Source: a virus
Lineage: Duplodnaviria > Heunggongvirae > Uroviricota > Caudoviricetes
IMG/VR virus record: IMGVR_UViG_2711768001_000001
DNA length: 7,563 bases
Reading direction: 5' to 3' (one strand)
Of this stretch, positions 6,173 through 6,765 are shown one piece after another. Each line of letters starts with the position of its first letter. Position 1 is the stretch's first letter. The notes under the pieces were generated by a model. That model had not been told where the DNA came from and ran no database searches. It saw only the letters and a list, made by a program, of their open reading frames with translations. The position numbers were made by a program, and so were the translations under genes.

Positions 6173-6202
6173 TTGTAAATGTAAGGTGTTTAAGCCTAAA
6201 TT
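6173..6202 (+). promoter_or_regulatory. Candidate sigma70-type promoter for the DedA-like gene (TTGTAA-N18-TAAATT)
   Basis: Hexamers TTGTAA (6173-6178) and TAAATT (6197-6202) with 18-nt spacing, about 50 nt upstream of the ATG at 6256, in an AT-rich intergenic region. Pattern match only. Confidence 0.2.
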
Positions 6203-6255
6203 AAGTCGTATCACGGTTAAATAGCAAAGAAAAATTCACAGAAGGAAAGACATTG

Positions 6256-6765
6256 ATGGAGTGGATAAATGCTTTGATGAACTATTTTGTACTTCATCCA
6301 TATCGCCTATGGGGGCTTCTTTTTATAATAGCGTTCACAAAATCCACTTTACTCATTTCGGCGATATTGCCACCAGCATCAATTATGATGGCCACTGTAA
6401 TTACAGTCAGCAAGACGACTCTTTCACCATGGGAAGCTGGAATCACGGTCATGAGTGGCGCATGGTGCGGTACTATCGTTAATTACCATCTTGGTATAAT
6501 AATTGGGCATATCCCTCAACTTGCATGTATAATATCAAGCCGTTCCAATACAATAGAACGGGTTCGCCTTCAGTTGCAAAATAACTCTGTGTCAATACTT
6601 TTCACTTCGCGCTTTATCGCCGTGCTGCGTTATATTGCTCCTTTGGTGGCAGGAATGTTGCAACTTCATCCAGTGAAAGTGTATACAGTGAGTCTGATTT
6701 CAGCTGCTAGCTGGTCAGCACTTTATGTTGGTAGTTTTAGCTTCGTGTTGCCTTTTTTTAGCTAA
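6256..6765 (+). CDS. DedA-family (SNARE-associated/TVP38-like) inner membrane protein, about 169 aa; moron on the opposite strand to the phage late genes
   Basis: ATG at 6256 preceded by GAAGGAAAG; TAA at 6763-6765. Hydrophobic throughout. SRFIAVLRYIAPLVAGML resembles the DedA signature G-R-x5-R-x3-P-x2-AG (compare E. coli YqjA GRFIAFVRTLLPTIAGL as recalled). N-terminal LLISAILPPAS parallels the LLPxxFLPGDS motif but lacks the acidic residues. Visibly AT-rich compared with flanking phage genes. Confidence 0.6.
   Translation: MEWINALMNYFVLHPYRLWGLLFIIAFTKSTLLISAILPPASIMMATVITVSKTTLSPWEAGITVMSGAWCGTIVNYHLGIIIGHIPQLACIISSRSNTIERVRLQLQNNSVSILFTSRFIAVLRYIAPLVAGMLQLHPVKVYTVSLISAASWSALYVGSFSFVLPFFS

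What the first reader, a model, noticed from the sequence alone, without database searches (positions are those of the whole stretch)
6173..6765. AT-rich DedA-family membrane protein moron between spanin and terminase genes
A 169-aa polytopic membrane protein is encoded on the opposite strand to all phage late genes, in the slot lambda uses for bor. It is visibly AT-rich against GC-richer phage genes (rough eyeball of short stretches: about 40 percent versus about 60 percent), pointing to separate acquisition. It keeps the arginine-containing DedA signature (SRFIAVLRYIAPLVAGM), but the positions normally holding the conserved membrane-embedded Glu and Asp appear to be Lys and Ala/Pro (FTKSTLLISAILPPAS versus F-x-E...LPGDS). 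DedA proteins have been linked to undecaprenyl-phosphate recycling and envelope homeostasis, so a charge-altered phage copy could act as an envelope modifier, superinfection-exclusion factor or dominant-negative decoy. I do not recall a DedA paralogue described as a lambdoid moron.
Basis: partly seen in the sequence, partly recalled or inferred. Interest (0 to 1): 0.65.

Follow-up and report, generated by a model that had tools for sequence, protein, structure and literature searches.

The report
Lysine-type DedA gene in prophage
A decaying lambda-like prophage of Shigella flexneri carries, where lambda carries bor, an intact membrane-protein gene of the DedA lipid-transporter family; it belongs to a small undescribed branch that has lysine where relatives have the proton-binding glutamate, and it probably arrived with a promoter answering to the host's PhoP stress regulator.

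Summary
Window 6256-6765 (+) encodes a 169-aa DedA/VTT protein (Pfam 52 bits). It is antisense to all phage genes and lies in a 798-bp, 42.6% GC insert between the small terminase gene and Rz. A related prophage has 57 bp there.

YqjA Glu39 and Asp51 are Lys29 and Ala41 here. Both arginines are kept.

The interpretation needs one correction. These substitutions are not a phage innovation. They are invariant in a small Enterobacterales subfamily that is chromosomal in Enterobacter, Morganella and Arsenophonus, including endosymbionts under 1 Mb. It is prophage-borne only in Shigella/E. coli and Citrobacter youngae. dN/dS is 0.14-0.23, so a decoy or dead copy is unlikely.

The 75 bases upstream that travel with the gene carry a PhoP-box-like repeat 13 nt before a -10 hexamer. 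Enterobacter orthologues have stronger boxes, and one was published as induced 23-fold in an mgrB-deleted strain. Lambda bor and DLP12 borD have a perfect PhoP box at the same distance from their start codons.

Best reading (inferred): stress-inducible envelope cargo, probably a lipid-phosphate transporter not coupled to protons. It is a new variant of a known kind, of moderate interest.

The parts
6256..6765 (+). ORF for the 169-aa DedA/VTT-family inner-membrane protein (lysine-type subfamily), stop codon included
   Evidence: ORF list. Pfam PF09335, 52.4 bits. RefSeq annotates the identical protein as 'DedA family protein' WP_011069285.1. dN/dS is 0.14-0.23 against Citrobacter and Kosakonia copies.
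6066..6863 (.). 798-bp insert relative to a related prophage that lacks it. It fills the terS-Rz intergenic space, which is 57 bp in the empty site.
   Evidence: BLAST of the window against L002 (E. coli 2024CK-00474 prophage): homology stops at 6065 and resumes at 6864. GC is 42.6% against 52.3%.
6181..6775 (+). The unit shared with the Citrobacter copies, both prophage and chromosomal: 75 nt of upstream sequence, the ORF and 10 nt downstream
   Evidence: blastn at 82% to the C. youngae prophage over 6181-6775 and 77% to C. meridianamericanus over 6186-6776. Upstream alignment A4.
6187..6203 (+). PhoP-box-like direct repeat TGTTTA-AGCCT-AAATTA. The first half-site is perfect and the second matches 3 of 6.
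   Evidence: Scan. The same element sits at -62 to -70 from the ATG in nearly all of the 36 (of 72) distinct orthologue upstream regions that carry the motif; one (L064) lies at -86, where my start-codon call is 15 nt downstream. 0 of 14,400 shuffles matched, but the motif was defined post hoc.
6217..6222 (+). Candidate -10 hexamer TTAAAT, 13 nt downstream of the repeat. No -35 hexamer is present.
   Evidence: GGTTAAAT is conserved in four of the five aligned upstream sequences; the E. coli RMDEC465 copy lacks one T of it. The spacing matches PhoP 'architecture I' of Zwir et al. 2012. The generic sigma-70 scan found no promoter here.
6243..6249 (+). Shine-Dalgarno-like AGGAAAG, 6 nt before the ATG
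   Evidence: Read directly from the sequence.
5294..6058 (-). Terminase small subunit gene (left neighbour)
   Evidence: PHROG 370, E 7.5e-95.
6854..7324 (-). Rz i-spanin gene (right neighbour), partly N-masked from about 7107 to 7356. The Rz1 lipoprotein ORF is embedded at about 6898-7104.
   Evidence: RefSeq 'lysis protein' in L001 mapped onto window coordinates. A lipobox-bearing ORF appears. Phage Rz hits.

Best explanation
The gene is lysogenic-conversion cargo (a 'moron') in a defective lambdoid prophage of Shigella flexneri. It sits antisense between Rz and the terminase genes, where lambda and DLP12 carry bor/borD.

It encodes a minimal DedA-core inner-membrane protein. The protein belongs to a small Enterobacterales subfamily within the COG0586 branch, the branch credited with flipping undecaprenyl phosphate (UndP). 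The subfamily keeps the two re-entrant-helix arginines thought to bind the lipid phosphate. It keeps the functionally important Ser (S42, equivalent to YqjA S52) and both tip prolines. The proton-binding Glu is replaced by Lys and Asp51 by Ala. The subfamily also lacks the C-terminal helix of canonical DedA proteins.

Proposed mechanism (inferred). The fixed positive charge of K29 stands in for the bound proton. The protein would then still bind and translocate an anionic lipid phosphate, most likely UndP or a close relative, without coupling to the proton-motive force.

The gene moved with about 75 nt of its own upstream DNA. That DNA carries a PhoP-box-like repeat at the -35 position and a -10 hexamer. 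Expression in the lysogen is therefore expected to follow host PhoPQ signals (low Mg2+, cationic peptides, acid), as happens for bor/borD in the same slot. This would support envelope lipid-carrier recycling when demand is high and the membrane potential is under attack.

Shown: family membership, the insertion, the residue pattern and its conservation, purifying selection, genomic contexts, and the promoter architecture in orthologues.

Taken from a paper: 23-fold induction of the Enterobacter orthologue in an mgrB-deleted strain.

Inferred: substrate, uncoupling from protons, PhoP control of the Shigella copy, and any benefit to the host.
For: Family and branch.
- Pfam 52.4 bits.
- The subfamily profile scores 44-61 bits against YabI, DedA, YqjA, YohD and YghB. 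It scores 12 bits or less against YdjX, YdjZ and YqaA.

Insertion.
- Empty-site comparison and GC difference.
- The same gene and lysis module sit next to a different terminase module in E. coli RMDEC465.
- The 78%-identical C. youngae copy occupies the same antisense slot in a different, lambda-type phage (GpA terminase, GH19 endolysin).

Residues.
- K29 is present in 55 of 55 members with that column. PPA, R125 and P129 are present in 56 of 56. R119 is R in 54 and K in 2.
- Nearest outsiders have Glu in 141 of 157.
- Todor et al. 2023 assign E39/D51 to proton binding and R130/R136 to the UndP phosphate. YqjA S52 is functionally required.

Evidence that it is functional.
- dN/dS is 0.14-0.23.
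- The exact protein occurs on at least 1000 contigs, mostly S. flexneri.
- The ORF is intact although the portal gene has two nonsense codons and IS elements flank the window.
- The subfamily is retained in 0.85-0.93 Mb Arsenophonus genomes.

Regulation.
- A repeat-plus-(-10) architecture is conserved in 36 of 72 distinct upstream regions.
- Enterobacter has a perfect second PhoP box upstream. This matches architectures I and II of Zwir 2012.
- In E. hormaechei, the consecutive genes MgtE, DedA and SDR rise 19.6-, 23.1- and 3.1-fold in an mgrB-deleted isolate. That gene order matches the subfamily locus in about 25 Enterobacter species.
- bor and borD have a perfect PhoP box at -69, and borD is a documented PhoP regulon member.
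Against: - The window's own box matches only 9 of 12 positions, with three mismatches all in the second half-site. Its spacing is 13 nt, not 12. That is below the two-mismatch threshold used to find Shigella PhoP targets.
- The text of the paper's Sf301 phoPQ microarray (LB medium) held no term starting with DedA, SF06 or SF07. I do not know the gene's Sf301 locus tag, so this is only a weak negative.
- The generic promoter scan found nothing upstream, and no terminator follows the gene.
- No experiment on any member of this subfamily tests its substrate or coupling.
- Mutating E39 or D51 to Ala inactivates YqjA. A transporter lacking both may work differently from what I propose, or on another substrate.
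- The neighbouring Mg2+-channel genes in chromosomal members may point to a cation-related role instead.
- The AlphaFold model is only moderate (pLDDT 77.6, and about 51 around residues 31-40). There is no solved DedA structure to compare with.
Confidence: 0.4

Rival explanations
1. The subfamily acts in Mg2+ or divalent-cation homeostasis rather than carrier-lipid recycling. It would work with, or regulate, Mg2+ channels, and the prophage copy would tune the host's low-Mg2+ response.
For: - Chromosomal members lie beside an MgtE-like gene in about 30 Enterobacter, Lelliottia and Huaxiibacter species and in free-living Arsenophonus.
- An MgtE-like gene lies three genes away in Hafnia.
- Members lie beside corA in Morganella.
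- MgtE and the DedA gene are co-induced about 20-fold.
- Papers link other DedA proteins to Mg2+ or divalent-cation homeostasis (titles and abstracts).
Against: - The membrane core gains positive charge (K29, R119, R125; no Asp in the whole protein). That does not suit cation binding.
- Co-regulation by PhoP is enough to explain the adjacency.
- Reduced Arsenophonus genomes keep the DedA gene, but no MgtE-like gene was found within about 8 kb of it.
- The phage copies travel without any Mg2+ transporter gene.
Confidence: 0.2
2. It is a neutral passenger. A host gene was picked up by illegitimate recombination and is still intact only because S. flexneri clones are young. It has no role for phage or host.
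For: - The prophage is defective.
- E. coli and Shigella copies differ by only 2-3 nt, so there has been little time for decay.
- No phenotype is known.
- In strain VL7S7 an IS911 sits between the repeat and the -10 hexamer, so the promoter region has been disrupted there.
Against: - dN/dS is 0.23 on the branch to the C. youngae prophage copy, and all subfamily-invariant residues are retained.
- The gene occupies the same slot in unrelated phage backbones in two genera.
- The promoter segment travels with the ORF.
Confidence: 0.15
3. It is a superinfection-exclusion or anti-phage membrane protein that blocks DNA entry or alters a receptor-bearing polymer.
For: Morons in lambdoid phages often have this role. 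It is an inner-membrane protein expressed against the late operon. UndP-dependent polymers (O-antigen, ECA) are phage receptors (established knowledge).
Against: - No hit in PADLOC-DB.
- Most members are chromosomal housekeeping-like genes, including in endosymbionts, which are unlikely to be under much phage pressure (the last point is my inference).
- There are no partner genes.
Confidence: 0.1
4. It is a dominant-negative decoy. A transport-dead subunit would heterodimerise with host YqjA, YghB or DedA and poison them.
For: DedA proteins dimerise through the re-entrant hairpins. The acidic residues required in YqjA are missing.
Against: - The same substitutions are invariant in vertically inherited chromosomal genes of several genera and in reduced endosymbiont genomes.
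- The orthologue is strongly induced as part of a protective regulon.
- The gene is under purifying selection.
- The C-terminal helix implicated in YqjA contacts is absent.
Confidence: 0.05

Closest known systems
COG0586 DedA proteins (E. coli YqjA, YghB, DedA, YabI; B. subtilis UptA)
   Same: - Pfam VTT/DedA domain.
- Best profile scores against this branch.
- Both re-entrant-helix arginines, both tip prolines and the Ser after the first tip are conserved.
- The predicted helix pattern fits TM, hairpin, TM, amphipathic helices, hairpin, TM.
   Different: - The proton-binding Glu39 is Lys, Asp51 is Ala and Gly50 is Pro, all invariant.
- The protein is about 50 residues shorter and lacks the C-terminal TM helix.
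- The subfamily is restricted to Enterobacterales: 12 representatives at E<=1e-30 among 1.84 billion proteins.
- A gap of about 65 bits separates it from the next relatives.
COG0398 DedA proteins (YdjX, YdjZ; eukaryotic TMEM41B and VMP1 scramblases)
   Same: They also lack acidic residues on the first re-entrant helix and are thought to be PMF-independent scramblases. This is the functional analogy for an uncoupled transporter.
   Different: They lack one or both arginines, and sequence similarity is negligible (12 bits or less). The window protein is not a member.
Lambda bor and DLP12 borD
   Same: - Same slot and orientation, antisense immediately after Rz/Rz1.
- DLP12 has the same type of lysis cassette (class II holin, RrrD, Rz) as this prophage.
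- A PhoP-box element lies 69 nt before the start codon and 12-13 nt before a -10 hexamer.
- borD is PhoP-activated.
   Different: - The proteins are unrelated: Bor is a small outer-membrane lipoprotein, and this is a polytopic inner-membrane protein.
- There is no DNA homology between the cassettes or their flanks.
- The bor box is perfect (12 of 12), whereas the window's matches 9 of 12.
PhoP-activated horizontally acquired genes with architecture I/II promoters (Zwir et al. 2012)
   Same: A direct-orientation box overlaps the -35 position about 12 nt upstream of the -10 hexamer. Enterobacter orthologues add a second upstream box, as in virK and ybjX.
   Different: No transcription start site, footprint or PhoP dependence has been measured for any member except indirectly, through the mgrB-deletion transcriptome.

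Membership tests
DedA / VTT domain family (Pfam PF09335) | Significant match to the family profile above the curated cut-off | tested here: met
   52.4 bits against a cut-off of 33.9, covering residues 41-161 and profile positions 3-121 of 123. NCBIfam gives a weak match to PRK10847 and UptA.
DedA / VTT domain family (Pfam PF09335) | Core fold of three TM helices plus two re-entrant helical hairpins with prolines at the tips | tested here: inconclusive
   The AlphaFold2 model (pLDDT 77.6, pTM 0.74) has helix breaks at 36-40 (LPPAS) and 121-123, close to R119 and R125, with invariant P39 and P129. No solved DedA structure exists for comparison, and the afdb50 library was unavailable.
COG0586 DedA subfamily (putative PMF-driven UndP flippases, Todor et al. 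2023) | Closest sequence relationship to COG0586 members | tested here: met
   The subfamily profile scores 44-61 bits against YabI, DedA, YqjA, YohD and YghB, and 12 bits or less against YdjX, YdjZ and YqaA. The nearest outsiders include DedA-PAP2 fusions of roughly 500-700 aa: the two whose sequences I read (P0040, P0042) carry PAP2 motifs by eye (my reading, no profile search). This fusion type is reported for COG0586.
COG0586 DedA subfamily (putative PMF-driven UndP flippases, Todor et al. 2023) | [quoted passage not shown] | tested here: met
   R119 and R125 align with them and are conserved across the subfamily.
COG0586 DedA subfamily (putative PMF-driven UndP flippases, Todor et al. 2023) | Conserved acidic residues on the first re-entrant helix (Glu39, Asp51), proposed to bind protons | tested here: not met
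   K29 and A41 occupy these columns and are invariant in 55-56 subfamily sequences. Glu occupies the first column in 141 of 157 nearest outsiders.
COG0586 DedA subfamily (putative PMF-driven UndP flippases, Todor et al. 2023) | UndP translocation activity, or complementation of DedA-deficient strains | not testable with these tools
   This needs genetics or biochemistry. No published test of this subfamily was found.
Phage moron / lysogenic-conversion cargo | An extra gene inserted between two genes that are adjacent in related phages | tested here: met
   798 bp here against 57 bp between terS and Rz in E. coli 2024CK-00474. At least 14 of the top 20 E. coli hits show the two flanks without the insert.
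Phage moron / lysogenic-conversion cargo | Nucleotide composition different from the surrounding phage genes | tested here: met
   41.8% against 52.3% GC. GC3 is 38% against 50-61% in terS, terL, portal and DUF2213.
Phage moron / lysogenic-conversion cargo | Own promoter and terminator (transcriptional autonomy) | tested here: inconclusive
   A conserved upstream element with a -10 hexamer travels with the ORF. The generic sigma-70 scan found no promoter, and no terminator hairpin follows the gene.
Phage moron / lysogenic-conversion cargo | Expression from the repressed prophage | not testable with these tools
   This needs RNA-seq or a reporter in the lysogen.
PhoP regulon, architecture I promoter | PhoP box (T/G)GTTTA-N5-(T/G)GTTTA with few mismatches | tested here: not met
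   Window: TGTTTAAGCCTAAATTA matches 9 of 12. Orthologues do better: C. youngae 10 of 12, Enterobacter proximal box 9-10 of 12 plus a distal box that is 12 of 12 in most species (11 of 12 in a few).
PhoP regulon, architecture I promoter | Box in direct orientation about 12 nt upstream of a -10 hexamer | tested here: met
   13 nt to TTAAAT in the window and 12 nt in all 35 other distinct orthologue sequences that carry the motif. Zwir 2012 counts 11-13 nt as architecture I.
PhoP regulon, architecture I promoter | PhoP-dependent transcription | not testable with these tools
   There is only indirect published evidence for the Enterobacter orthologue, 23-fold up in an mgrB deletion. The Shigella phoPQ microarray paper does not list the gene.

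The most novel reading that the evidence does not exclude
The lysine-type DedA proteins would be a natural class of lipid-phosphate (UndP) translocases that do not depend on the proton-motive force. PhoPQ would switch them on to keep carrier-lipid recycling going, and with it lipid A aminoarabinose modification, peptidoglycan and O-antigen synthesis, when cationic peptides or low Mg2+ compromise the membrane potential. Lambdoid phages would have captured one together with its PhoP-dependent promoter into the same slot as bor. That would make the Rz-terminase junction a dedicated site for host-stress-responsive conversion genes, with a possible contribution to Shigella's tolerance of host antimicrobial peptides.
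Probability: 0.2. Interest if true: 0.75.

Novelty: new variant of a known kind. Interest (0 to 1): 0.5.

Why it matters
The mechanism of DedA proteins is still argued from four residues: two acids for protons and two arginines for the lipid phosphate. This subfamily keeps the arginines and reverses the charge of the key acid. It is conserved, under purifying selection, induced with a protective regulon, and retained even in tiny endosymbiont genomes. It therefore offers a direct test of whether proton coupling is needed for carrier-lipid flipping.

For phage biology, it adds a second, unrelated cargo gene to the bor slot that carries the same type of PhoP-responsive promoter. This suggests that prophages place host-stress-inducible envelope genes at that junction.

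For Shigella, the gene is present with identical sequence in at least a thousand assemblies. It is an untested candidate for envelope or antimicrobial-peptide tolerance.

Tried and rejected
- Structure comparison. The PDB sequence search (single sequence and profile) found nothing, and Foldseek against PDB gave only noise with E above 2. The afdb50 library was not available. The AlphaFold model could only be read for its helix pattern.
- Defence function. PADLOC gave no hit.
- RNA elements. An Rfam scan of 5900-7000 found only a sub-threshold snoRNA match. Folds of the downstream region and the leader were no better than shuffles.
- Terminator and promoter scan. No terminator lies after the gene and no sigma-70 consensus promoter lies before it.
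- Insertion mechanism. No meaningful direct or inverted repeats sit at the 6066/6863 or 6181/6775 boundaries. The insert flanks share no homology with the bor regions of lambda or DLP12.
- Isolated phages. Megablast found only the Rz and terS flanks. tblastn found only distant canonical DedA genes at 24-30% identity, in short, unannotated or draft-assembly records that look to me like host DNA. No sequenced phage isolate carries this gene.
- Plasmids. The two C. freundii 'plasmid' hits turned out to be chromosomal-type DNA carrying icd, purB and phoPQ.
- Literature. Searches for DedA with prophage, with Shigella and phage, and for the RefSeq accession found no description. One apparent hit was the place name 'Dedacun'. 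The paper defining dedA(Ecl) in E. cloacae colistin heteroresistance is not held. I could not tell whether that gene belongs to this subfamily.
- Rejected ideas. A pseudogene or decaying copy is rejected on dN/dS and the invariant residues. A lysis regulator is rejected because the gene is on the opposite strand and its orthologues are chromosomal. A phage-specific charge alteration is rejected because the substitutions predate capture.
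Full report
**What is in the window.** The window is a fragment of a lambdoid prophage. IS1 (1-91) and IS2 (7478-7563) sequence bound it, and a masked run of N lies at about 7107-7356. All structural and packaging genes read on the minus strand:
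- cement protein, 106-612
- DUF2213, 616-1836
- Mu-F-like head protein, 1840-2622
- portal, 2474-3940
- large terminase, 3940-5451
- small terminase, 5294-6058

Rz/Rz1 lie at 6854-7324, also on the minus strand. The only plus-strand gene is the ORF at 6256-6765, which encodes 169 aa. It has a Shine-Dalgarno-like AGGAAAG 6 nt upstream. The nearly identical region in E. coli FDAARGOS_943 lies in a prophage next to ybhA and modC that is riddled with IS elements. RefSeq calls the protein there 'DedA family protein' WP_011069285.1. The exact protein is on record on at least 1000 contigs, mostly Shigella flexneri, so the window is almost certainly from S. flexneri or a Shigella-like E. coli.

**The observation.** The ORF matches Pfam VTT/DedA at 52.4 bits, above the 33.9-bit cut-off. 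GC is 41.8% for the ORF and 52.3% for the rest of the window, and GC3 is 38% against 50-61% in the neighbouring genes. A related prophage in E. coli 2024CK-00474 aligns up to window 6065 and again from 6864, with only 57 bp in between. The DedA gene therefore sits in a 798-bp insertion that exactly fills the terS-Rz intergenic space. Only 6 of 5426 complete E. coli genomes carry it. No sequenced phage isolate does. Lambda and DLP12 carry bor and borD antisense right after Rz/Rz1, so the 'bor slot' description is correct. I found no boundary repeats and no homology to the bor flanks.

**The residues.** I aligned the protein with E. coli K-12 YqjA, YghB, DedA, YabI and YohD, fetched from MG1655. 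K29 falls at YqjA Glu39 and P40-A41 at Gly50-Asp51. R119 and R125 fall at Arg130 and Arg136. The protein also ends about 50 residues earlier and lacks the last transmembrane helix. Todor et al. 2023 assign Glu39/Asp51 to proton binding and Arg130/Arg136 to the undecaprenyl-phosphate head group in the COG0586 subfamily. In their scheme COG0398 lacks both the acids and the arginines, and COG1238 has acids but no arginines. The present combination, arginines without acids, does not fit any of the three subfamilies as that paper describes them. The subfamily profile scores 44-61 bits against the five COG0586-type K-12 paralogues and 12 bits or less against YdjX, YdjZ and YqaA. It is therefore a divergent offshoot of the COG0586 branch. 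The assignment of YqjA, DedA, YabI, YohD and YdjX to their COGs is partly from my own knowledge.

**A distinct subfamily, not a phage oddity.**
- A search of 1.84 billion representative proteins found only 12 clusters at E<=1e-30. Below them the list holds mostly short fragments and then ordinary DedA proteins.
- In the profile search of the 5.8-billion-protein collection, scores drop from 149 bits for the weakest subfamily member to 83 bits for the next relative.
- In 58 subfamily sequences, K29 is present in all 55 that cover the column. P39, P40, A41, R125 and P129 are present in all 56. S42 is present in 55 of 56. S42 corresponds to YqjA S52, which a recent preprint shows to be functionally required.
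- In 157 nearest outsiders the K29 column is Glu in 141. The few Lys there belong to subfamily fragments. The Asp51 column is already variable, with Asp in only 6.
- The Glu-to-Lys reversal is therefore the defining change, and it predates capture by phages.

**Where the subfamily lives.** A scan of one genome per species returned 73 loci.
- In about 30 Enterobacter, Lelliottia and Huaxiibacter species the gene is divergent from an MgtE-like Mg2+-channel gene, about 389 bp away, and in most of them is followed by an SDR gene.
- In free-living Arsenophonus an MgtE-like gene lies just downstream.
- In Morganella the gene sits between a rarD-like gene and corA.
- In Hafnia an MgtE-like gene lies three genes away.
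- In Kosakonia it lies among ordinary chromosomal genes.
- It is retained in Arsenophonus endosymbionts with 0.85-0.93 Mb genomes.
- Its GC content tracks the host everywhere except in the Shigella copy.

Prophage-borne copies occur only in Shigella/E. coli and in Citrobacter youngae. The C. youngae copy is 78% identical and sits in the same antisense position between lysis genes and terminase. That phage is different, with GpA/Nu1-type terminase, lambda-type portal and protease, and a GH19 endolysin. In E. coli RMDEC465 the same gene and lysis module are joined to yet another terminase module. In the C. freundii complex the gene lies beside dinI; in C. freundii itself dinI and the gene sit next to ars genes, an Ail/Lom gene and icd, which looks like a prophage remnant.

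**Is it functional?** dN/dS against Citrobacter and Kosakonia copies is 0.14-0.23, including 0.23 against the other prophage copy. In this window the portal gene has two in-frame stop codons (W59*, Q127*) that the FDAARGOS_943 copy lacks. In FDAARGOS_943 the large terminase is split by IS2. The prophage is decaying in different ways in different strains while the DedA ORF stays intact. The AlphaFold2 model (48-sequence alignment, pLDDT 77.6, pTM 0.74) has a helix pattern that fits the published DedA topology. The region around residues 31-40 is poorly defined. There is no solved DedA structure to compare with.

**Regulation, the unexpected part.** DNA similarity between the window and the Citrobacter copies spans only 6181-6775. 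That is the ORF plus 75 nt upstream and 10 nt downstream. The upstream block is conserved in all contexts. It contains TGTTTA-AGCCT-AAATTA (6187-6203), then 13 nt, then TTAAAT (6217-6222), with no -35 hexamer.

The same arrangement occurs in 36 of 72 distinct orthologue upstream regions. In nearly all it starts 62-70 nt before the start codon; one (L064) lies at -86, where my start-codon call is 15 nt downstream. The pattern is [T/G/C]GTT[G/T]A-N5-NA[T/A]TNA, 12 nt, then T[T/C][A/T]AAT. It covers nearly all Enterobacteriaceae members, including those in unrelated genomic contexts. None of 14,400 shuffled sequences matched, but I defined the motif after seeing the data. Most Enterobacter species add a perfect PhoP box, typically TGTTTAAGAACGGTTTA, about 20 nt further upstream.

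Zwir et al. 2012 define PhoP architecture I as a direct box 12 nt (11-13) upstream of the -10 hexamer. Architecture II is the same plus a second upstream box that can counter H-NS silencing. A published E. hormaechei transcriptome lists three consecutive genes: MgtE (19.6-fold up), DedA (23.1-fold up) and SDR (3.1-fold up). The isolate is colistin-resistant and has lost mgrB, the PhoQ inhibitor. That gene order is the signature of the subfamily locus in Enterobacter. The orthologue is therefore very likely part of the PhoPQ regulon.

Lambda bor and DLP12 borD carry a perfect PhoP box, TGTTTAGGGTTTGTTTA, 69 nt before their start codons and 12 nt before TACGAT. borD is a documented PhoP-activated gene. 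Two unrelated cargo genes in the same slot thus share the same promoter logic.

The caveats are real.
- The window's box matches only 9 of 12 positions, and all mismatches are in the second half-site.
- That is below the two-mismatch threshold used in the S. flexneri PhoP study. The text of that paper's LB-grown phoPQ microarray held no term starting with DedA, SF06 or SF07. I do not know the gene's Sf301 locus tag, so this is only a weak negative.
- The generic promoter scan finds nothing here, and no terminator follows the gene.

**Mechanism.** My proposal is that the protein is a working inner-membrane lipid-phosphate transporter of the DedA type. The buried lysine would replace the proton that the glutamate normally carries, so translocation of an anionic lipid, most likely UndP, would no longer depend on the proton-motive force. 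The host's PhoPQ system would control its expression.

This rests on four points. The substrate-side arginines, the serine and the prolines are retained. The lysine is invariant. The subfamily is conserved in reduced genomes. And in other transporter families a fixed basic side chain can stand in for a coupling ion; that last point is established knowledge applied by analogy, not a test. No experiment addresses it. I give the whole statement about 0.4. Within it, 'DedA-family moron under purifying selection' is near certain, and 'uncoupled UndP flippase under PhoP control in Shigella' is perhaps one in three.

**Rivals.**
- A role in Mg2+ homeostasis, suggested by the recurrent MgtE and CorA neighbours.
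- A neutral passenger.
- Superinfection exclusion, for which PADLOC gave no hit.
This is hard to reconcile with vertical inheritance in several genera and with induction as part of a protective regulon.

**Novelty.** The gene is annotated in RefSeq, so its existence is known. I found no paper describing a prophage-borne DedA, this lysine-type subfamily, or its PhoP-type promoter. I could not check whether the dedA(Ecl) gene required for colistin heteroresistance in E. cloacae, reported to be up-regulated through Ecr/PhoPQ, is this gene, because the paper is not held. I rate the finding a new variant of a known kind, of moderate interest. It offers a clean natural test of the proton-coupling model for DedA proteins and a second example of PhoP-responsive cargo in the bor slot.

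Noticed in passing
window 2474-3940 (-): The portal (DUF1073) gene has two in-frame stop codons (W59*, Q127*) that are absent from the otherwise 99.85% identical copy in E. coli FDAARGOS_943. There the large terminase is instead split by IS2. The prophage is decaying independently in different strains.
   Followed up: yes
window 1-91, 7478-7563 and about 7107-7356: The window ends in IS1 and IS2 sequence, and a masked run of N covers part of Rz, Rz1 and the endolysin end. The right-hand lysis genes therefore cannot be read fully here.
   Followed up: partly
L100 (lambda) 1954-2153 and L101 (DLP12) 4895-5094, minus strand: Lambda bor and DLP12 borD have an identical perfect PhoP box, TGTTTAGGGTTTGTTTA, at -69 from the ATG, followed by 12 nt and TACGAT. 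Its 5-nt spacer GGGTT is the same as in the proximal box of many Enterobacter orthologues of the DedA gene (TGTTGAGGGTTTATTTA). Whether that is coincidence is unknown.
   Followed up: partly
L035-L066, L067-L071, L080-L092 (loci): Chromosomal members of the subfamily recurrently sit beside Mg2+-channel genes of two unrelated families: MgtE-like in Enterobacter, Lelliottia, Huaxiibacter and Arsenophonus, and CorA in Morganella.
   Followed up: partly
L074, L088, L093-L096 (Arsenophonus endosymbionts, contigs of 0.85-0.94 Mb): The lysine-type DedA gene is retained in strongly reduced, roughly 16-25% GC endosymbiont genomes. I could not check whether it is their only DedA or UndP-translocase candidate.
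   Followed up: no
L021 (E. coli VL7S7) 4824-5992; equivalent to window 6205/6206: An IS911 is inserted between the PhoP-box-like repeat and the -10 hexamer of the DedA gene in this strain. It separates the ORF from most of its upstream element.
   Followed up: no
L022 (C. freundii pRHBSTW-00902_4, NZ_CP056259.1): This 82-kb record is labelled a plasmid but carries housekeeping genes (icd, rluE, mnmA, hflD, purB, phoPQ). It looks like chromosomal DNA, or a mis-assigned replicon, rather than a plasmid.
   Followed up: no
P0040, P0042 and many of P0043-P0171: The nearest relatives outside the subfamily include many proteins of roughly 500-700 aa. The two I read (P0040, P0042) are DedA N-terminal domains fused to what look by eye like PAP2 phosphatase domains (no profile search run). 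They keep the Glu at the K29 position.
   Followed up: partly
L001 22814-23124: The prophage carries a cluster of four tRNA genes (Gly, Thr, Arg, Ile) upstream of the lysis cassette. The RMDEC465 relative has the same set, and the VL7S7 relative has Val in place of Gly.
   Followed up: no
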